This document shows, piece by piece, positions 4,050-21,599 of a DNA stretch of 52,202 nt (position 1 is the first letter of the stretch; the number at the start of each line of letters is the position of its first letter). Source of the stretch: Eledone cirrhosa (Eukaryota); the NCBI GenBank assembly GCA_964016885.1, contig CAXHJY010000186.1:1-52202 (forward strand), in the 5' to 3' direction. Position numbers and translations under genes: made by a program. The notes beneath the pieces are model-generated. The model did not search any database and was not told the DNA's origin. It saw only the letters and a program-made list of their open reading frames with translations.

Positions 4050-4947
4050 CAAACAGATATATATACAATCTTTCAGCGATACTTTCTTGCTTGGAAAACT
4101 GGAGATGATGTACTTCAAATTTTACTTCGATTTTTTGCCATAACTCTTTAGCCGAACTGAGAAAATGTTGTAAAACGTCTGTAACAATATCTGAAATCAG
4201 GGAAGTAATGAGTAGATGTGTGAAAGTGTGGTAAAAGCATTTGAGTTACGGGGGGTACTGAACAGAGGTGTGAAAGGTTGGTAAAAACATCTGAGATGCG
4301 GGAAATAGTGGGCATTTTTGTGAAATACCTGTAACAACATGTGGAATAAGGGAACTACTGAAGATATGTGCAATAGATAAAACGATGGAGACACGTTGGT
4401 CTGCTCTAAAAGCTTTAACCAAATATGATATGTCAGATTCATTCATCCCTAATTTATATGACATGTAGCATAAGTAACATATTAAGAACAGCCCTAATCC
4501 TCTCAATTCCGGATAAAAGAAGGAAGAGAACATAACTTTGCTTAAGTCAGTTTTAAAAAGTTTAGTAGTGTTGTGAGCTACCTACATGTTAATATCATAA
4601 GCAGACCCTTTCGATTATTGAAGCACATAGAACATTCGTCGTCGTAATCGACGGAGGTCCAAAACACAAATACACGATAATGGTTATTTAATCATCTACA
4701 ACATTTACATGTCAGTAATCACCTTCCACTGCCGTCCTCCTTCTCATTATCATAAACCTTGGTATGATGTATCATCCATATTGAGCATGGAATAAGTATC
4801 TTTTCCGACTGGGGTTCAATTCAATCAACTGCCAGAAATCCTTCACAACATACCAATGCAAGAATCTATCGTTCTCAATACCCTTTGTTTATGATGACAA
4901 ACATCATCCTCGTTATTATACACACATATACACATACACACATATAC

Positions 4948-4967
4948 ATCTATCTATCTATCTATCT
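4948..4967. repeat. (ATCT)5 flank at the 5' end of the retrotransposon (target remnant or TSD)
   Basis: ATCTATCTATCTATCTATCT lies immediately before the element's unique 5' sequence and is the same motif as the 3' flank. Confidence 0.85.
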
Positions 4968-5168
4968 TGATAGAGTGAGACACGCTTCACATCGGCTCCG
5001 CTATTCCATCGGAATTTACCCTTACTATAGTAAGTACCAGTGAATTTTTTCAGTGCAACACATTTGGAACACTTACCCCTGTTATTTAGGGAAACATGTT
5101 TACATTTACCCTCTTTTTAGGGGGTAAAATAAATAACTATTTTGCTGTAAAATTTCTTTCTTGGCAGC

Positions 5169-6679
5169 ATGGCGGAAAAGATGGCAGACATGTCTGCCAT
5201 TAGCTATCCCACGCCCCACAAGTCTGAAGAACAAAAAATGGATACAACAAAACTAGACAACGAAACAAACAAGGAAAATGAAAAAAACAAATGTTACGGA
5301 AAATGAGCAAACGGAAAACAAACAAACAGAAAATAAGAATACAAGCGCAGAGGCTTTCCCTAAGCCCACTCGCATCAACAACATACAACTTCTATCCCTC
5401 CTACATGGGTAGAAGAACACAGAGAGTCAAAATACAAACAATGCTGCCCACAATGGACTTCTGGTGGGCTATTGCTGGCTTCATAGACATGGGCGAGGAC
5501 ACAGTGCTGTCAATGGGGAAGGCATCTGGAGATGCGTTCCTGGGAATGGGCCTCGACCTACTAGTCCAAATGAGGCCCGAAAGAATAGAGCAAATCCCGG
5601 ATCGCATCTGGCTGGATGACCTCACCCCAATATATATAATTGTAGAGGGGAGAAGACCAGCATGCTATTCATGCACGGAAAGAGGACACGTTAAGGCTAA
5701 CTGCCCGAAACGTATCCCCCAAAAAGGACTATTGCCCACACCCACTACAAACAGTACACCAACACCACCCACCTCCAAAAATACACTAATACCACACACA
5801 GCAAACAAAATACAGACACCACCAACCACAAGCACAACACAAACATCACCACCACCAGCACCAAACACAAGCACGACACAAAAATCACCACCACCATCAC
5901 CAACCACAACACAAACATCACCACTACCATCACCAACCACAAGCACGACACAAACATCACCACCACCACCACCACAAAACGCATTCCAAACAAATAATAA
6001 AAAAATAGCAACAAATCTACCCCTCCCGCAAAAAAAAAACAACCAGACCCCACGTCCCTCCCACCTAGCGCTGAAGAGTTTCCCCCAACTTCTGAAGAAG
6101 AAGGAGGAGAAGCCTTCAGACAAGTTAAAAGAAAAAAAAGAAAGCACACACCCAGCACACCACAAATAACCCACACACAAACACCAACTCCAATCAAAAA
6201 CACCCCACCCTCGACAAACAAAAATAAATCTGCGCCTCCCCTCTTCGAAACATTGACAGCATCACAAAAAAAGACTTTGCAATACACATATATAAATAAA
6301 GAAAACAAAAAACTGTTTAAATTAATAAACAATAGCCCTTTGGTGCAGTCCGAAGGGCCAAACTTTATCTCAACAGAGAACTTCACCCATTTAAAAATGA
6401 TAAAGGCCCTCTGGACCTTTATCGTTCCTTAAAAGAACAATTTAAACAGGACGTGAGCCCCCCCCCCCCTGTTTAAAACCGTTAAATCGCGTCCTCTTGA
6501 AATATTTCCCCATAACCTCCCCTCTCCCTGACACAACTCCAAATACCCCAACCCCACCACACTCGGATACCCCCACACCACCACAAAACATCCCTCCACC
6601 CAACACACCCGACGCCATGGAAATTACACAACCTGGAGAGGTAGGTGCTTGTCTTTCTTCACTTTCAACACCAAAATAG
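5169..6679 (+). pseudogene. ORF1 (gag-like nucleic-acid-binding protein), disrupted
   Basis: The likely start is ATG 5169 (MAEKMADM...). The largest piece, 5291-6169, has CYSCTERGHVKANC (CX2CX4HX4C, 5663-5704) and a Pro/Thr-rich linker. After a shift at the A10 run (6030-6039) the frame reads ...EAFRQVKRKKRK..., a basic NLS-like patch. The last piece, 6497-6679, overlaps ORF2. Joins between pieces are inferred. Confidence 0.75.
5821..5970 (+). repeat. In-frame 39/33-bp minisatellite (4 copies) in ORF1
   Basis: Units begin at 5821, 5860, 5899 and 5932 and encode variants of TSTTQTSPPPSPT. Confidence 0.85.
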
Positions 6680-9600
6680 ATCAATTGAGAGTTGGCTGTT
6701 TGAATGCGCGTGGCCTGGGCTCAGCTTGGAAGCAAGCAAAGCTTCTAAGTGACCCCAGGTCACGAAGTATAGATGTGATGGTTGTTTGCGAGAGTCGGAT
6801 CAGCAGCGTGCGACAGCTGGCTCCCACCTTCGATGACTTTGAGATGCACGCATCTCTCTGTCAACCCGGAGGCGGGGGTGGGGTTGCTGTACTGCTGGAT
6901 AAACGTCTGGCTCTCGACGTACAGATTGTTCACTCGGACCCGGGGGGTCGATTACTGGTGCTGGACGTCGGAGGCGGTGAAGGCGGGGCTTTCAGACTGG
7001 TCGGTCTTTATGCCCCCTTCGGGGCTGAAAGAGCCGACTTCTTCCAGCGTCTGGAGACTTTTCTAGGAACGTCGCGTTCCCTGCTTTTAGTGGGGGACTG
7101 GAATGGAATCCTAGATGCGCGTTGGGACTATGCAGGGGCATGTCCCGATAGAGGGGGTGTAGCAGCCTCAAGGGGTTACTCGATCGATTCGACCTGGTCG
7201 ATAGATTTCGACTAGATTTTCCAACTGTGCCAACCTGGACCTGGGCAAACCGCAGTGGTCAATCTAGATCGTACCTAGATAGGTTTTTGGTTAGGAGAAA
7301 GGATAGGGACGTATTTAGTTGTCCAGAATTGCTCATGGTTGGCTATACAGATCACAAATTAGTGACCTGCGTGGTCAACCTTGATAGAACGCATAGACAG
7401 GGTCCCGGTTACTGGAAGATGAACCTGTCCTTGCCGGCAAAGGAAGCTTACAGGAACCGGATTAGTAGCTTAGTTAAGATGCGGTTGACGGGAGCGATCG
7501 TCAACAGCAGGTGGTGGGTATCTCTAAAGAGAGAGATTAGAGTAAGTTCGATAGGTTACAGTAAGGAACTAGCGGCGAATAGAAATAGGAGGGAAAGGGA
7601 GTTAACAGATAAATTAGAAGAGGCGATTAGGAGCGGAGACGTGGCCAGAGTGTTAGCGGCGAGAACGGCGTTGAGCCATTTCTTTGACGCGAAACACGAA
7701 GGCTGCGTTGTCCGAAGTAAAATACGTGCTTTAGGAAACGAGGGGACCAAAGCTGTTAGCTGGGCCCGCGTGACAGAAGCCAAGAGTGGGATTAAATCCA
7801 CCATTCGGTCTTTGCGAGACCAGGATGGACGAGTGATCCTTGAACCTGAGTGGATGTGCGAGGCCTTTCAAAGGCACTTTGCTCGACTGTTCGGAGGGGG
7901 CGGGGGGCTGGACGAGGATGTGGACTTCAGTCCATACCTCGACGGTCTACCGCGTCTTTCGAGCGGCGAAGCGGAGTGCTGCGAAAGGCCAATCACAGCC
8001 ACTGAAATCGGGGAAGCGCTCAGCCAATGCAGCAGACGCAAATCTCCGGGTCTCGATGGTCTACCATACGAACTTTATTTAGCTATGCCGGTCTTGTTCT
8101 CCGAACTCCTCGAGGCTGTCTATTGCAACTGGCAACAGAACGGGAGAATTCCATTCCCTGTTCTGTGACCAAGGGCGTAGTCACGCTAGTGAGGAAGGAC
8201 GAGAGCAAGGGGGACGACTTAAGTAACTTTAGGCCCATAACTCTGCTGAATGCAGAGTTACAGATTTTGGCCAAGGTGTTGGCGAAGAGGTTGGCGCTTG
8301 TGGTGGGTGGTTTGGTGGGAGACGCGCAGACATGCGCTATCCCGTCCAGGTCCATTCACGACAACCTCCACCTCATGCGATACATTGTAGAGAGGGTTGG
8401 GAACGAACCCGGCTTTGGTGGGGCCCTGATCAACTTGGATCAATCTAAGGCGTTCAATAGGGTCGACCATGGTTACCTGGATGCGGTGCTAGCGGCGGCG
8501 GGCTTCGGACCCGTTTTCAGGGGCTGGATGTCTGCCATGCACAGTGGCAACATCTACTCTAGGATTAAAGTAAACGGCTATCTCTCGGAGCCGTTTCAAA
8601 TCACCCAGTCCATCAGACAGGGGTGCCCCCTCTCCTCCCTTCTGTACGTATTGACTCTCGAGCCACTTCTGCGGAAGTTGGAGTTGCTGCGGGGCATACC
8701 CCTGGAACCGGGATTGCAGAAAGCGGTCTCGGCCTATGCCGACGACGTAACAGTAATGGTGGCGGACGCTTCGGAAATAGGGGCGATCGCCACCCTACTG
8801 GAGGAATACGAAAGTCTGACGGGGGCCGGTGAAGCTGCTCGGGGTCTGGTTCGGACCGGACCTCCAGGTGGAGAAGAATTGGGGCGAGGTGACGAGCAGG
8901 GTGTTTGCGCTGACCCAGAAGTGGGCCAAGTGCAAACTATCACTGAAAGGTCGGGCGGAGGTGACGAACGCTTACATAGCGTCCGTCATCTACTACCGCC
9001 TGACCGTCGTGCCTTGCCCCAAGGAAACGCTCACCATCATGGAGCGCATGCTCTTCCAGTTCCTCTGCAAGAAGCGGCCTCCCATGGTGAGGAGATCCAT
9101 CTGCTGCCAGCACCCTTCGAAAGGAGGGCTGGGTATGCCGTGGCTGTTGATGCGTAGGCACGCATTGAGGCTACGGCATCTACAGGTATTCCTCACCGGT
9201 CAGCCGGTGTGGGCCCCGTTTGTGAGGCGAGCCTTCCTACAGCTCGTCTCGCTCACCGAGCTGCAATCCTGGGTGAAGCAAAGACCGAGAAAACTGGGCA
9301 ACTGGCACACCGAGTGTGCCCAGGCGCTCACGGCTCTCTGGCAAGCGGACCCGACTATCAGTGGAGAATCCACCTCGACATTCTATAGAGGGCTGGTGGC
9401 TAGCAGGGGCGACGACACCCTTGGAGAGTCGCTAGGCATGGCGGAGGACAAACTGGCCAGCCTGTTCGGTAGAACTTTCGGCCCGGGACTCATGGACAAC
9501 TACCAGAGGTCCCTAGCCTGGCAGTGCTACCGGGGGGCTCTGCCCGTTCGAGAAAAGCTCTACAGACACGGGCGCCCGGGCAGGGATCCCGCGAAAAAGA

Positions 9601-10019
9601 TCTGTCCCAGATGCGTGCGCGACGAGGAAACCGTTGCGCATGCACTGGTACACTGCCCGGGCGTTGCCGATCTGTGGGGCTACGTCGAACGACTGCTGTC
9701 GCGTGTGGCACCGATTCGATTGACCGCCGAGTCTCTGGTGAACATCAAGCCGCCTCCTCCCTTCAGAAATGAAGCAGAGGCGGTCTTTCTGTGCGTAATA
9801 GCCATGATGAAAGAGGTTGTGTGGTGGACGCGCCTGAAAGGTCTGAGGTCGGGTGACTTTCTCTCCGGCCAACACCTGGTTTACTTCTTCCGATACCACT
9901 TCGGAAGAAGGATCAGGATGGAGAGAGAAGTGCTTGGCCCCAGACAGTTTTATGAAAGGTGGGTGAAAGAAGCGAGAATGGCTCGTGTAAATGGGCCTTC
10001 TCTCTACATTGTTCTGTAG
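6649..10019 (+). pseudogene. ORF2 (APE endonuclease - reverse transcriptase - zinc finger), split into four frames
   Basis: APE motifs: LNARGL, CESR, LYAP, GDWN, TW, YLDRFL, TDH. RT motifs: NFRPITLLN, LDQSKAFNRVDH, RQGCPLS, YADD (8735-8746), KLLGV. C-terminal CPRC-x8-H-x4-C at 9603-9656; stop at 10017-10019. Lesions: -1 in G5 at 7153-7157, an ATTCC duplication at 8148-8157, and a deletion at ~8825. Confidence 0.93.
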
Positions 10020-10220
10020 GTGAAGAAGTGAAGAGGAAAGGGGGTGCGCCTCCTCTCTGGGCTTCCCCCGCGAAAAGAGTTGCACACTTTTCGAGGGTAT
10101 GTGCAATCCCTTTTGAGGACTTTTTATTATATTATTCTTATTGTTATGCCTTTTTCTTTACTCGCATTTCTGTACCCCCCCCCCTGTGTATTTGTCCCCT
10201 TCTCTTGTGCCCTAGTGGCA

Positions 10221-10226
10221 AATAAA
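10221..10226 (+). terminator. Polyadenylation-type signal AATAAA at the element 3' end
   Basis: AATAAAGAAA lies directly before the (TCTA)n tract, with no poly(A) tail. Confidence 0.7.
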
Positions 10227-10229
10227 GAA

Positions 10230-10310
<81 letters not shown>
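10230..10310. repeat. (ATCT)20 tract at the element 3' end
   Basis: Uninterrupted tetranucleotide run. Confidence 0.97.
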
Positions 10311-10311
<1 letters not shown>

Positions 10312-10314
10312 TCA

Positions 10315-10380
10315 TCTCTCTCTCTCTCTTTATATATATATGTATATTTATACTCACATATACATATATTTATGTATATA

Positions 10381-10457
<77 letters not shown>

Positions 10458-10458
10458 G

Positions 10459-10490
<32 letters not shown>

Positions 10491-10569
10491 CGATTGTATA
10501 GCACATATAAATATATATATTCATATATACATAAATATATGTATATGTGCGTATATATATATATATATA
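10315..10569. repeat. Compound (TC)n/(TA)n/(TG)n microsatellite
   Basis: Read directly; includes a long pure TA run at about 10385-10456. Confidence 0.93.
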
Positions 10570-13804: not shown

Positions 13805-16800
13805 CCACCACCATTACCTCCACTACAACCACCACTACTACAGTCATAACTATCACCACCACCATTACCACTACTACAACCAATACTACTACAGCCATAA
13901 CTATCACCACCATTACCTCCACTACAACCAACACTACTACAGCCATAACTATCACCACCACCATTACCACTACTACAACCAATACTACTACAACCATAAC
14001 TATCACCACCACCATTACCTCCACTACAACCACCACTACTACAGTCATAACTATCACCACCACCATTACCACTACTACAACCAATACTACTACAGCCATA
14101 ACTATCACCACCATTACCTCCACTACAACCAACACTACTACAGCCATAATTATCACCACCACCATTACCACTACTACAACCAACACTACTACAGCCATAA
14201 CTATCACCACCACCATTACCACTACTACAAGCACCACTACAACAGCCATAACTATCACCACCACCATTACCACTACTACAACCACCACTACAACAGCCAT
14301 AACTATCACCACCACCATTACCACTACTACAACCAATACTACTACAGCCATAACTATCACCACCATTACCTCCACTACAACCACCATTACTACAGCCATA
14401 ACTATCACCACCACCATTACCACTACAACAACCACAACTACAACAGCCATAACTATCACCACCACCATTACCACCACTACAACCAACACTACAACAGCCA
14501 TAACTATCACCACCACCATTACCACCACTACAACCAACACTACTACAGCCATAACTATCACCACCACCATTACCACCACTACAACCAACACTACAACAGC
14601 CATAACTATCACCACCACCATTACCTCCACTACAACCAACACTACTACAGCCATAACTATCACCACCACCATTACCACTACAACAACCACCACTACAACA
14701 GCCATAACTATCACCACCACCATTACCTCCACTACAACCAACACTACTACAGCCATAACTATCACCACCACCATTACCACTACTACAACCACCACTACAA
14801 CAGTCATAACTATCACCACCACCATTACCACTACTACAACCACCACCACTACTAAAGCCATAACTATCACCACCACCATTACCACTACTGCAACCACCAC
14901 TACAACAGCCATAACTATCACCACCACCATTACTACTACTGCAACCTACACTACTACAGACATAACTATCACCAACACCATTATCACTACTACAGCCATA
15001 ACTATCACTACCACCATTACCACAACTGCAACCACCACTACAACAGCCATAACTATCACCACCACCATTACCACTACTACAACCAACACTACTACAGCCA
15101 TAACTATCACCACCACCATTACCACTACTACAACCAACACTACAACAGCCATAACTATCACCACCAACATTACCACTACTACAGCCAATACTACTACAGC
15201 CATAACTATCACCACCACCATTACCACTACTACAACCAACACTACTACAGCCATAACTATCACCACCACCATTACCACTACTACAACCAACACTACTACA
15301 GCCATAACTATCACCACCAACATTACCACTACTACAGCCAACACCACTACAGCCATAACTATCACCACCACCATTACCACTACTACAACCAATACTACTA
15401 CAGCCATAACTATCACCACCACCATTACCACTACTGCAACCAACACTACTACAGCCATAACTATCACCACCACCATTACCACTACTACAACCAATACTAC
15501 TACAAACATAACTATCACCACCACCATTACTACTACAACAAACATTACTACAGCCATAACTATCGCCACTACCATTACTACTACTACTACAGCCAACACT
15601 ACTACAGACATAACTATCACCACCACCATTACCACTACTACAACCAACATTACTACAGCCATAACTATCGCCACCACCATTACCTCTACTACAGCCATAA
15701 CTATCACCACCACCATTACCACTACTGCAACTAACACTACTACAGACATAACTATCACCACTCCATTACCACTACTACAACCAACACTACTACAGCCATA
15801 ACTATCACCAACACCATTACCACTACTACAACCAACACTACTACAGCCATAACTATCACCACCACCATTACCACTACTACAGCCAACACTACTACAGCCA
15901 TAACTATCACCACCACCATTACCACTACAACAACCAACACTACTACAGCCATAACTATCACCACCACCATTACCACTACTACAACTAACACTACTACAGC
16001 CATAACTATCACCACCACCATTACCACTACTACAACCAATACTACTACAGCCATAACTATCGCCACCTTCATTACCACTACTACAACCAACACTACTACA
16101 GCCATAACTATCACCACCACCATTACCACTACTACAACCAACACTACTACAACAATAACTATCACCACCACCATTACCACTACTACAACCAATACTACAG
16201 CCATAACTATCGCCACCGCCATTATTACTACAACTACAGCCAACACTACTACAGCCATAACTATCACCACCACAATTACCACTACTACAACTAACACTAC
16301 TACAGCCATAACTATCACCACCACCATTACCACTACTACAACTAACACTACTACAGCCATAACTATCACCACCACCATTACCACTACTACAACCAACACT
16401 ACTACAGCCATAACTATCACCACCACCATTACCACTACTACAGCCAACACTAGTACAGCCATAACTATCACCACCACCATTACTACTACAACCACCTCTA
16501 CTACAGCCATAACTATCGCCACCACCATTATTACTTCTACTACAGCCAACACTACTACAGCCATAACTATCACCACCACCATTACCACTACTACAGCCAT
16601 AACTATCACCACCACCATTACCACTACAACAACCAACACTACTACAGCCATAACTATCACCACCACCATTACCACTACTACAACTAACACTACTACAGCC
16701 ATAACTATCACCACCACCATTACCACTACTACAACCAATACTACTACAGCCATAACTATCGCCACCTTCATTACCACTACTACAACCAACACTACTACAG

Positions 16801-19800
16801 CCATAACTATCGCCACCACCATTACCACTACTACAACCAACACTACTACAGCCATAACTATCGCCACCACCATTATTACTACTACAGCCAACACTACTAC
16901 AGCCATAACTATCGCCACCACCATTACTACTACAACAACCACTACTACAGCCATAACTATCGCCACCACCCTTACCACTACTACAAGCAACCTTACTACA
17001 GTCATAACTATCACCACCACCATTACCACTACTACAACCAACACTACTACAGCCATAACTATCACCACCACCATTACCACTACTACAACCAATACTACTA
17101 CAACCATAACTATCACCACCACCATTACCCCTAATACAACCAACACTACTACAGCCATAACTATCACCACCACCATTACCACTACTACAACCAATAATAC
17201 TTCAACCATAACTATCACCACCACCATTACCACTACTACAACCAATACTACAGCCATAACTATCGCCACCGCCATTATTACTACAACTACAGCCAACACT
17301 ACTACAGCCATAACTATCACCACCACCATTACCACTACTACAAACAACACTACTACAGCCATAACTATCACCACCACCATTACGACTGCTACAACCAATA
17401 CTACTACAACCATAACTATCACCACCACCATTACCACTACTACAACCAACACTACTACAGCCATAACTATCACCACCACCATTACCACTACTACAGCCAA
17501 CACTAGTACAGCCATAACTATCACCACCACCATTACTACTACAACCACCACTACTACAGCCATAACTATCGCCACCACCATTATTACTTCTACTACAGCC
17601 AACACAACTACAGCCATAACTATCACCACCACCATTACCACTACTACAGCCATAACTATCACCACCACTATTACGAATGCTACAACCAACACTACTACAG
17701 CCATAACTATCAGACCCACAATTACCAACTACTACAACCAACACTACTACAGCCATAACTATCACCACCACCATTACCACTACTACAGCCAACACTACTA
17801 CAGCCATAACTATCACCACCACCATTACCACTACTACAACCAATACTACAGCCATAACTATCACCACCACCATTACTACTACAACAACCACTACTACAGC
17901 CATAACTATCGCCACCACCATTACCACTACTACAACCAACACTACTACAGCCATAACTATCGCCACCACCATTATTACTACTACAGCCAACACTACTACA
18001 GCCATAACTATCGCCATCACCCTTACCACTACTACAAGCAACCTTACTACAGTCATAACTATCACCACCACCATTACCACTACTACAACCAACACTACTA
18101 CAGCCATAACTATCACCACCACCATTACCACTACTACAACCAATACTACTACAACCATAACTATCACCACCACCATTACCACTAATACAACCAACACTAC
18201 TACAGCCATAACTATCACCACCACCATTACCACTACTACAACCAATAATACTACAACCATAACTATCACCACCACCATTACCACTACTACAGCCAACACT
18301 ACTACAGCCATAACTATCACCACCACCATTACCACTACTACAGCCAACACTACTACAGCCATAACTATCACCACCACCATTACCACTACTACAACTAACA
18401 CTACAACGGCCATAACTATCACCACCACCATTACCACTACTACAACCAACACTACTACAGCCATAACTATCACCACCACCATTACCACTACTACAGCCAA
18501 CACTACTACAGCCATAACTATCACCACCACCATTACCACTACTACAACCAACACTACTACAGCCATAACTATCAGACCCACAATTACCAACTACTACAAC
18601 CAACACTACTACAGCCATAACTATCACCACCACCATTACCACTACTACAACCAACACTACTACAGCCATAACTATCACCACCACCATTACCACTACTACA
18701 ACCAATACTACAGCCATAACTATCGCCACCACCATTACTACTACAACAACCACTACTACAGCCATAACTATCGCCACCACCATTACCACTACTACAACCA
18801 ACACTACTACAGCCATAACTATTGCCACCACCATTATTACTACTACAGCCAACACTACTACAGCCATAACTATCGCCACCACTATTACTACTACAACAAC
18901 CACTACTACAGCCATAACTATCGCCACCACCCTTACCACTACTACAAGCAACCTTACTACAGTCATAACTATCACCACCACCATTACCACTACTACAACC
19001 AACACTACTACAGCCATAACTATCACCACCACCATTACCACTACTACAGCCAACACTACTACAGCCATAACTATCACCACCACCATTACCACTACTACAA
19101 CTAACACTACTACGGCCATAACTATCACCACCACCATTACCACTACTACAGCCAACACTACTACAGCCATAACTATCACCACCACCATTACCACTAATAC
19201 AACCAACACTACTACAGCCATAACTATTACCACCACCATTACCACTACTACAGCCAACACTACTACAGCCATAACTATCACCACCACCATTACCACTACT
19301 ACAACTAACACTACTACGGCCATAACGATCACCACCACCATTACCACTACTACAACCAACACTACTACAGCCATAACTATCACCACCACCATTTCCACTA
19401 CTACAGCCAACACTACTACAGCCATAACTATCACCACCACCATTACCACTAATACAACCAACACTACTACAGCCATAACTATTACCACCACCATTACCAC
19501 TACTACAGCCAACACTACTACAGCCATAACTATCACCACCACCATTACCACTACTACAACCAACACTACTACGGCCATAACTATCACCACCACCATTACC
19601 ACTACTACAACCAACACTACTACAGCCATAACTATAACCACCACCATTACCACTACTACAGCCAACACTACTACAGCCATAACTATCACCATCACCATTA
19701 CCACTACTACAACCAATACTACTACAACCATAACTATCACCACCACCATTACCACTACTACAACCAATACTACTACAACCATAACTATCACCACCACCAT

Positions 19801-20240
19801 TACCACTACTACAACCAATACTACTACAACCATAACTATCACCACCACCATTACCACTACTACAACCAATACTACTACAACCATAACTATCACCACCACC
19901 ATTACCACTACTACAACCAATACTACTACAACCATAACTATCACCACCACCATTACCACTACTACAACCAATACTACTACAACCATAACTATCACCACCA
20001 CCATTACCACTAATACAACGAACACTACTACAGCCACAATTATCACCACCACCATTACCACTACTACAACCAACACTACTACAGCCATAACTATCACCAC
20101 CACCATTACCACTACTACAACCAACACTACTACAGCCATAACTATCACCACCACCATTACCACTACTACAACCAACATTACTACAGCCATAACTATCACC
20201 ACCACCATTACCACTACTACAGCCAACACTACTGCAGCCA
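13805..20240. repeat. Satellite A: 51-bp tandem array, roughly 125 copies
   Basis: Consensus GCCATAACTATCACCACCACCATTACCACTACTACAACCAACACTACTACA, which matches the 17-aa periodicity in the ORF track. Most length variants differ by multiples of 3. Confidence 0.96.
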
Positions 20241-20505
20241 TTGCCATCACTATTACCACTAATACAACCACTACTCCTACAGCCATTACTATTGCCATCA
20301 CCATTACTTCGACTACAACGACCACTACTAAAACCACTTCTATTCCCATCATCATTAACACTATTACAACCACCACTACTACAACCACAACTAATACAAC
20401 CACCACTACTACAAATACCACATCTATAACCATTACCATCACTAACACCATTGCCACTACTAAAAACACCCCACTTCTTCCAACAACATTGCTATTAACA
20501 CTACT

Positions 20506-21410
20506 ACAACCATTACTACTATAACCATTACTACTAGAACTATAACTACTGCAACCATTATTACGACAACTATTACTACTACAAGCATTACTACAATAAC
20601 CATTACTACTATAACCATTACTACTAGAACTATAACTACTGCAACCATTATTACGACAACTATAACTACTACAACCATTACTACTATAACCATTACTACT
20701 ATAACCATTACTACAAGCACTATATCTACTGCAACCATTATTACGACAAATATTATTACTACAAGCATTACTACTATAACCATTACTACTATAACCATTA
20801 CTACTATAACTATAACTACTGCAACCATTATTACGACAACTATAACTACTACAACCATTACTACTATAACCATTACTACTACAACTATTAGTGCTAGAAC
20901 TAGAAATACTACAACTATTACTACTACAACTATTACTACTATAACCTTTACTACTAGAACTATAACTACTACAACTATTACTACTACAACTATTACTACT
21001 ATAACCATTACTACAAGAACTATAACTACTGCAACCATTATTACAACTATATCTACTACAACTATTACTGCTACAACCATTACTACTACAACCATTTCTA
21101 CTATAACCATTACTACTATAACCATTACTACTACAACTAATACTACTACAACCATTACTACTACAACCATTACTACTAGAACTACAACTACTATAACCAT
21201 TACTACTTCAACTATTACTAATACAAGCATTACTACTATAACCATTACTACTAAAACCATTACTACTAGAACTAGAACTACTACAACCATTATTACGACA
21301 ACTATTACTACTACAACCATTACTACTATAACCATTACTACTACAACTATAACTACTACAACCATTACTATTATAACCATTACTACTATAACTATTACTA
21401 CTACAACCAT
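20506..21410. repeat. Satellite B: 15-bp array with a 90-bp higher-order unit
   Basis: Units such as ATAACCATTACTACT, AGAACTATAACTACT and GCAACCATTATTACG. The GCAACC variant recurs at 20551, 20641, 20731 and 20821, then at 21031. Confidence 0.9.
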
Positions 21411-21599
21411 TACCGTTGCTATTATCTCTATTACGACCACCAATATTACAATTATTAACATTGTTATCATCATCAACATTATGGCCATCACCACCAACAA
21501 CAACATTATTACTTCCACCACCACCACCACACAACTACCAACAACAACATCATCACCATCACAATCATTACCACTGCAACCAACAACAACATCACCGCA

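What the first reader, a model, noticed from the sequence alone, without database searches (positions are those of the whole stretch)
4948..10310. Probable (TATC)n/(GATA)n microsatellite-targeting Tx1-clade retrotransposon
Seen: the element is bracketed by (ATCT)5 at its 5' end and (ATCT)20 at its 3' end, four bases after AATAAA, with no poly(A). Removing it rejoins one compound CA/TA-(TATC)-(TC)-(TA) microsatellite. Established: Tx1-clade elements are often sequence-specific through their APE domain (Kibi at TC repeats, Koshi at TTC repeats, Keno at U2 snRNA, Mutsu at 5S rDNA, Dewa at tRNA arrays). Inference: this family's endonuclease targets TATC repeats, possibly priming by annealing of a read-through (UCUA)n tail. 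I know of no described TATC-specific family but cannot search for one.
Basis: partly seen in the sequence, partly recalled or inferred. Interest (0 to 1): 0.75.

Follow-up and report, generated by a model that had tools for sequence, protein, structure and literature searches.

The report
Octopus LINE that targets GATA repeats
This is a broken copy of a young, abundant jumping gene from what is likely an octopus; its family sits at TATC/GATA repeats at one exact position and likely finds and joins its landing site by carrying a few repeat units on both ends of its RNA, a new target for a known kind of repeat-seeking element.

Summary
Confirmed. Window 4968-10232 is a damaged copy of a young 5.7-kb L1/Tx1-group LINE of a probable octopod. 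Genome-wide, 571 of 620 5' ends follow TATCTATCT directly (background 2.6e-4). None of 284 sampled 3' ends has poly(A). Shortened copies show that the target is real: 13 of 16 have TATCT at the 5' junction, and seven carry 16-21 bp target duplications that begin at TATCT. The 3' repeat is therefore mostly target DNA, not a synthesized tail. Full-length copies usually lack the duplication (4 of 30, against 7-8 of 17 shortened; p 0.02-0.07) yet join at one phase. This suggests the RNA carries repeat units at its 5' end too, as some R2 elements do (inferred). Sister lineages about 80-85% identical target (TGTC)n or dispersed repeats; the TGTC lineage differs in the endonuclease hairpin loop. Repeat-targeting Tx1 elements are known. 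I found no TATC target in ten searches, but Repbase and Dfam could not be checked, and Tx1 membership was not tested against named references. This scan noted the GATA target before on other DNA (e1-9510316, e1-9514738, e1-9556944).

The parts
4918..4947 (+). CA/TA microsatellite, left part of the pre-existing compound repeat
4948..4967 (+). (ATCT)5 ending TATCT at the 5' junction; target array, last units possibly RNA-borne (inferred)
4968..5168 (+). 5' UTR, starting TGATAGAG in this lineage; holds a splice-donor-like GTAAGT (5030-5035) and a CCC/GGG hairpin (about 5105-5128)
5169..6432 (+). ORF1, broken in this copy (351 bp missing at 5343); CCHC zinc knuckle at about 5660-5710
6680..10019 (+). 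ORF2 (APE, RT, zf-RVT), frameshifted in this copy (indels at 6966, 7152, 8147; 98 bp missing at 8825); no ATG at its start in the copies of this lineage shown
6692..7370 (+). APE-type endonuclease domain; the stretch aligned to the L1 betaB6-betaB5 hairpin loop lies at about 7239-7274
8213..8800 (+). reverse transcriptase domain (Pfam RVT_1, E 3.3e-21)
9510..9677 (+). C-terminal zinc-binding domain (zf-RVT, E 6.5e-06)
10020..10232 (+). 3' UTR with AATAAA at 10221-10226; element ends about GAAATC, no poly(A)
10233..10309 (+).
10310..10569 (+). (TC)n-(TA)n-(TG)n, right part of the compound microsatellite

Best explanation
The element is a damaged copy of a young L1/Tx1-group LINE family whose copies sit at one exact phase of TATC/GATA repeats, and it likely gets there by nicking the GATA strand with its own endonuclease and by annealing repeat units carried on both ends of its RNA. 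Shown: fixed junctions (element end followed by TATCT; TATCT followed by the element head), no poly(A), 16-21 bp duplications starting at TATCT in shortened copies, head-to-tail stacking. Inferred steps: (1) transcription starts a few bases upstream inside the flanking array and runs past AATAAA into the downstream array, so the RNA has UAUC units at both ends; (2) the APE domain nicks the GATA strand opposite the start of TATCT; (3) the freed AGATA end pairs with the read-through UAUCU and primes reverse transcription, so no poly(A) is copied; (4) the other strand is cut about 16-20 bp downstream, which leaves the duplication in shortened copies; (5) full-length cDNA ends in repeat units that pair in register with the upstream array, the unpaired overhang is trimmed, and the junction is uniform with little or no duplication; (6) each insertion leaves TATC on both sides, so later copies stack.
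For: 571 of 620 5' ends follow TATCTATCT(T); 30 of 30 loci; 109 of 111 distinct heads in my loci; background 2.6e-4. 0 of 284 distinct 3' ends with a run of 8 or more A; 225 have TATCT and 37 TGTCT within 12 nt. Shortened copies picked on their 3' UTR alone: 13 of 16 have TATCT at or within about 21 nt of the 5' junction, against 2.8% of random positions. Duplications starting at TATCT and reaching into non-repeat DNA: L073 21, L092 20, L099 18, L150 18, L175 16, L266 18, L286 18 bp, some counting microhomology. Full-length copies with a readable downstream flank show such a duplication in only 4 of 30; L275 has the duplication plus 8 extra ATCT bases and L273 about 16 extra, not present in the target. 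Tandem joins: 39 of 56 have a pure spacer, of 5, 9, 13 ... 97 nt. Precedent: uniform R2 5' junctions when the RNA keeps upstream target sequence (PMC3774820, abstract); annealing of target-like 3' RNA in SART1, R1Bm and R2Ol (PMC7265360, PMC6530143, passages).
Against: No RNA ends were seen and no nicking was assayed. The full-length versus shortened contrast is small: 4 of 30 against 7 of 17, Fisher p 0.07 (8 of 17, p 0.016), and most of those rows were selected for a broken array. Three of 16 shortened copies (L166, L178, L188) and two more from the selected set (L253, L260) have no TATC at the 5' side, and L271 has neither TATC nor a duplication. 49 of 620 5' ends lack the exact 10-mer. A sequence-specific second cut after TATCT could also fix the phase. 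L1 loop-graft work argues that loop sequence alone does not set specificity (PMC1950540, passages). The spacer lengths follow from the pattern asked for and are not an independent test of phase.
Confidence: 0.65

Rival explanations
1. Endonuclease only: the APE cuts both strands sequence-specifically (before TATCT on the GATA strand, after TATCT on the TATC strand); the RNA carries no upstream repeat.
For: Explains the fixed TATCT junction of full-length copies without unusual transcription; a 17-bp stagger in a pure array also ends in TATCT, and L282 is full-length with a 17-bp duplication. Tx1L endonuclease is sequence-specific in vitro (PMC1950540, passages).
Against: In shortened copies the second cut falls in unrelated sequence 16-21 bp away. 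26 of 30 readable full-length copies lack that duplication, and L275 and L273 carry extra ATCT units absent from the target.
Confidence: 0.2
2. RNA-guided choice: the APE is loose and nicks many sites; only nicks whose 3' end pairs with the read-through UAUC RNA are extended, so the target follows the RNA and a lineage switches target when a copy lands in another repeat.
For: Some insertions are at single TATCT motifs (L266, L286). The TGTC lineage's APE lies very close to that of one TATC lineage, and L258 has a TGTC-type head inside a TATC array. The last element word tracks the target as its complement: TAGAAA with TATCT 115 times, CAGAAA with TGTCT 28 times, CAGAAA with TATCT 3 times.
Against: Eight APE positions set the TGTC lineage apart from all three TATC lineages, two of them in the hairpin loop. 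Five bases of pairing alone seem too few for 92% fidelity (inference). The TAGA/CAGA link is one evolutionary event.
Confidence: 0.12
3. No targeting: TATC is only a tail and head that the element writes itself, at random sites; tandem stacks come from template jumping.
For: Repeats on both sides of full-length copies could be RNA-borne; 50 of 111 heads have a relative's 3' end within 260 nt upstream.
Against: Shortened copies cannot carry a 5' head, yet 13 of 16 have TATCT at the 5' junction and seven duplications begin with TATCT; the flanks continue into compound microsatellites; stacked neighbours are often of other lineages 70-86% identical.
Confidence: 0.03

Closest known systems
Kibi (TC)n and Koshi (TTC)n of teleosts; crocodilian Tx1 families on (TTCC)n/(TTTC)n (PMC4494074, passages and section 15; PMC3812793, passages)
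   Same: APE-type LINE of the L1/Tx1 kind that inserts into a pyrimidine-rich microsatellite strand; tetranucleotide targets already known in crocodilians.
   Different: Target is TATC/GATA, with a TGTC sister; host is a cephalopod; relationship to Kibi and Koshi not tested; the figure listing further targets and the supplement of PMC4494074 could not be read.
R2 elements whose RNA keeps upstream 28S sequence (PMC3774820, abstract)
   Same: Uniform 5' junctions in full-length copies, explained by annealing of target sequence on the cDNA end.
   Different: R2 has a restriction-like endonuclease, one ORF, an rDNA target and an HDV-like ribozyme; here APE, two ORFs, a microsatellite, and no Rfam ribozyme match in the 5' UTR.
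SART1Bm, R1Bm, R2Ol 3' read-through annealing (PMC7265360, PMC6530143, passages)
   Same: Target-like sequence at the RNA 3' end is proposed to pair with the nicked strand and start reverse transcription.
   Different: Other clades and targets; SART1 inserts with poly(A), this family does not.
Octopus vulgaris L1-Tx1 families (PMC13282606, passages and one supplementary table)
   Same: 80 L1-Tx1 families annotated, 13 recently active; this family or a close relative may well be among them.
   Different: The main text has no occurrence of 'target'; no site specificity seen in what I read; the consensus library was not available.

Membership tests
L1 group of non-LTR retrotransposons | ORF2 with N-terminal APE, RT and C-terminal zinc domain; separate ORF1 | tested here: met
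   Pfam Exo_endo_phos 1.6e-12, RVT_1 5.6e-24, zf-RVT 2.4e-05 in intact sibling L140; weak zf-CCHC in ORF1
L1 group of non-LTR retrotransposons | ORF2 closer to L1 than to R2 | tested here: met
   best solved-structure match human L1 ORF2p E 1.3e-49 over residues 25-878; R2 3.8e-23, RT only; other LINE clades were not among the 11 hits
L1 group of non-LTR retrotransposons | 5' truncation and target-site duplication (TPRT marks) | tested here: met
   seven shortened copies with 16-21 bp duplications
L1 clade proper | poly(A) tail and loose T-rich target (recalled; consensus also in PMC3812793 passage) | tested here: not met
   0 of 284 ends with poly(A); fixed TATCT junction
Tx1 clade | RT phylogeny groups with Tx1L, Keno, Kibi, Koshi | not testable with these tools
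   no named Tx1 sequence among 240 listed homologues or 10 clusters looked up; the atlas gave no answer
Tx1 clade | frequent target-sequence preference | tested here: met
   shared with other clades, so not diagnostic
Microsatellite-targeting Tx1 families (Kibi/Koshi type) | more than 20% of flanks carry the repeat (criterion of PMC4494074, section 6 passage) | tested here: met
   92% of 5' ends (571 of 620); 13 of 16 shortened copies
Microsatellite-targeting Tx1 families (Kibi/Koshi type) | target is (TC)n, (TTC)n, (TTCC)n or (TTTC)n | tested here: not met
   target is TATC; one examined copy of this lineage (L309) ends in (TC)n
Microsatellite-targeting Tx1 families (Kibi/Koshi type) | endonuclease cuts the repeat specifically | not testable with these tools
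   needs a nicking assay
R2-type 5' processing | HDV-like ribozyme at the 5' end | tested here: inconclusive
   no ribozyme family among 5 weak Rfam matches, E 1.2-4.9, in 4900-5300; divergent ribozymes can be missed

The most novel reading that the evidence does not exclude
Octopods carry a young radiation of L1/Tx1-group LINEs in which the RNA is framed by target repeats at both ends and does much of the site selection and joining, R2-style but without a ribozyme. Lineages only 15-20% apart have switched between TATC, TGTC and dispersed-repeat targets through a few endonuclease changes (hairpin loop R/H to N) together with a complementary change in the last bases of the RNA (TAGA to CAGA). 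That makes a natural series for separating protein readout from RNA annealing in LINE targeting.
Probability: 0.3. Interest if true: 0.7.

Novelty: new variant of a known kind. Interest (0 to 1): 0.5.

Why it matters
How APE-type LINEs pick microsatellites was called not well understood in a 2013 review (PMC3812793, passage). Here hundreds of near-identical copies, natural intact ORF2s and close sister lineages with different targets let one test whether the endonuclease or the RNA ends set the target, and which residues matter. The family also shapes this genome: it interrupts and stacks inside GATA microsatellites, which matters for repeat annotation and for tetranucleotide markers in octopods.

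Tried and rejected
Random insertion with a self-written TATC tail: rejected (shortened copies, duplications). Poly(A) tail: 0 of 284. The 529 of 1509 short-pattern 3' ends not followed by NN-TATCT looked like counter-evidence; of 20 examined, about 14 belong to a lineage about 80% identical that targets another repeat, 3 are TATC ends with a shifted spacer, 1 ends in (TC)n (this lineage), 1 is an unexplained exception, 1 had no further homology. Ribozyme in the 5' UTR: no Rfam match. Spliced retrocopies joining the 5' UTR donor-like site to the ORF1 start: 0 exact matches. Expression: no RNA holder listed; contigs of four runs did not show the 5' junction in other organisms. Tx1 placement by named homologues or the atlas: no named reference obtained. 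NCBIfam added nothing. The ORF2 start/stop pairing of e1-8673698 was not among the 25 longest inverted repeats shown of 61 (DNA pairing only, a weak test). Kojima and Fujiwara 2004 is not held; the supplement of PMC4494074 could not be read and may list further Tx1 targets.
Full report
Observation. The window holds (ATCT)5 at 4948-4967, a 5.26-kb element, AATAAA at 10221, three or four bases, and (ATCT)20 at 10230-10309 followed by (TC)n and (TA)n. There is no poly(A). Joining the flanks gives one compound microsatellite.

What the element is. The pieces match zf-CCHC (ORF1), APE, RT and zf-RVT. Against sibling L061 the window copy is 97.4% identical, lacks 351 bp in ORF1 and 98 bp in ORF2, and has three small ORF2 indels. 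The family is 5.7 kb long. Of 140 long loci held at that point, 18 have an open ORF2 of 1159-1168 aa from this lineage, so the family is young. The best solved-structure match is human L1 ORF2p (E 1.3e-49), ahead of R2 (3.8e-23). Named homologues come from Argonauta hians (68-69%) and Acanthosepion pharaonis (52%), so the host (3.0 Gb) is probably an octopod. No named Tx1 sequence came up, so L1-group placement is shown and Tx1 membership is not tested.

Targeting, genome-wide. The 5' core occurs 620 times, and 571 of these are directly preceded by TATCTATCT(T). In 20 arbitrarily placed 10-kb stretches that 9-mer occurs at 2.6e-4 per strand-position. A 22-nt 3' pattern has 1365 matches and covers several lineages. 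Among 284 distinct 3' ends in my loci, none has a run of 8 A, 225 have TATCT and 37 TGTCT within 12 nt. A shorter 3' pattern gave 1509 matches, 980 followed by NN-TATCT; of 20 of the remainder examined, most belong to a sister lineage with another target, three are TATC variants and about three are exceptions or unclear.

Target or tail. Full-length flanks could be carried by the RNA, so shortened copies are the test. Of 16 shortened or rearranged copies of TATC lineages picked on their 3' UTR alone, 13 have TATCT at or within about 21 nt of the 5' junction; L166, L178 and L188 do not. Four further rows (L070, L128, L148, L174) had no resolvable junction, and rows of the TGTC and other lineages were left out. 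The background is 2.8%. Seven copies show a duplication that starts at TATCT and runs into non-repeat DNA: 21, 20, 18, 18, 16, 18 and 18 bp; L266 and L286 come from a set selected for a broken array. In these seven the element end abuts the duplication, so the 3' repeat is target and not a synthesized tail. L266 and L286 sit at a single TATCT, so arrays are favoured but not required.

Full-length versus shortened. Among 116 distinct insertions with a TATCT 3' junction, 54 had a break in the downstream array within 12 nt. Of the 30 full-length ones, 4 show the duplication, three of them in tandem-repeat settings; of 24 others I dropped 7 (two full-length TGTC-lineage copies, one chimera with another head, four rearranged) and kept 17, of which 7 show a 16-21 bp duplication and one more a 12-bp match in a minisatellite. 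Fisher p is 0.07 or 0.016. Full-length heads still join after TATCT in 109 of 111 cases, and two copies carry extra ATCT units that the target lacks. I infer that full-length RNA begins with a few UAUC units, whose cDNA pairs with the upstream array. R2 elements that keep upstream target sequence have uniform junctions for this proposed reason (PMC3774820, abstract only). No ribozyme was found, so an upstream transcription start is the likelier source (inference). Annealing of target-like 3' RNA is proposed for SART1, R1Bm and R2Ol (PMC7265360 and PMC6530143, passages).

Stacking. 50 of 111 heads have a relative's 3' end just upstream (my loci are enriched for such cases), and 39 of 56 tandem joins have a pure repeat spacer, as short as 5 nt. 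Neighbours are often other lineages, which favours successive insertion over template jumping.

A radiation with several targets. APE and RT trees of 44 copies (thinned from 85 with both domains, of 121 examined) recover the same groups: the window's lineage (100/100), two more TATC lineages, a TGTC lineage (261 matches of its 3' pattern; 26 of the first 30 followed by TGTCT), a lineage at TATATC in a dispersed repeat and one in a satellite. TATC occurs in three lineages and may be ancestral (midpoint root only). Eight APE positions separate the TGTC lineage from all three TATC lineages; two lie in the stretch aligned to the L1 hairpin loop, where mostly R or H becomes N. That loop probes the minor groove in L1, but grafting work found its sequence alone does not transfer specificity (PMC1950540, passages). 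The last element word also tracks the target as its complement, TAGA with TCTA and CAGA with TCTG; this is a single event and only a hint.

Known and new. Listed microsatellite targets are ACAY, AC, TC, TTC and TAA (PMC3812793, passages), TTCC and TTTC (PMC4494074, passages and section 15; no TATC or GATA in its main text), and TG (PMC4640811, passages). A 2026 O. vulgaris annotation counts 80 L1-Tx1 families, 13 recently active, and its main text does not use the word target. Ten searches (about six aimed at targets or cephalopods) turned up no TATC/GATA target, judged from listings and the passages read. Repbase, Dfam, Kojima and Fujiwara 2004, and the figure and supplement of PMC4494074 could not be seen and may hold it. 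Earlier notes of this scan report the same target on other DNA; they are not independent support, and I had formed my reading before opening them.

Verdict. A real, strongly site-specific family with a target not found in print, inside a known kind of element. The added value is the genome-wide count, the duplications, the likely RNA-borne 5' repeat and the sister lineages with switched targets. Interest 0.5.

Noticed in passing
L136, L145, L151, L169, L176, L221-L250: Sister lineage 80-85% identical with (TGTC)n at both junctions; 261 matches of its 3' pattern; forms long head-to-tail runs (e.g. nine matches about 5.6 kb apart on C3 near 358.7 Mb).
   Followed up: partly
L102-L107, L131, L132: Sister lineage that inserts at one fixed site of a satellite repeat (3' end GAAACCACTC...), six matches about 5.8-7 kb apart on C1 near 4.23-4.26 Mb.
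   Followed up: partly
L292-L310: Sister lineage about 80% identical that lands at TATATC within a dispersed CT-rich repeat; sister to one TATC lineage in both trees.
   Followed up: partly
window 5030-5035 and about 5150-5168; 6638-6680: A splice-donor-like GT(A/G)AG(T) or GTAGGT lies 60-100 nt into the 5' UTR of all eight heads shown, with acceptor-like stretches before ORF1 and ORF2; no spliced retrocopy found for the one join tested.
   Followed up: partly
window about 5105-5128: A TTT..CCC/GGG..AAA hairpin is kept across otherwise diverged 5' UTRs; 6 of 14 predicted pairs show a two-sided change in 9 sequences.
   Followed up: partly
window 6620-6700: ORF2 has no ATG at its start in the three copies of this lineage shown, where the TGTC and satellite lineages have one; a short ATG-led frame of about 20 codons precedes it.
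   Followed up: no
L065, L134, L137 versus L138, L161, L163; L258: 5' UTR/ORF1 swaps: one head type sits on two different ORF2 lineages, and a TGTC-type head sits on a TATC-ended copy.
   Followed up: no
window 13805-21413 and 21710-52200: Large tandem arrays of 51 bp (131 copies), 30 bp (31 copies) and 53 bp (581 copies); the 51- and 30-bp units read as Thr-rich repeats, with open frames of up to 816 aa on the + strand; satellite or mucin-like exon not decided.
   Followed up: no
L159: A related 3' end (82%) flanked by TG/TGCG repeats on both sides; possibly a further target.
   Followed up: no
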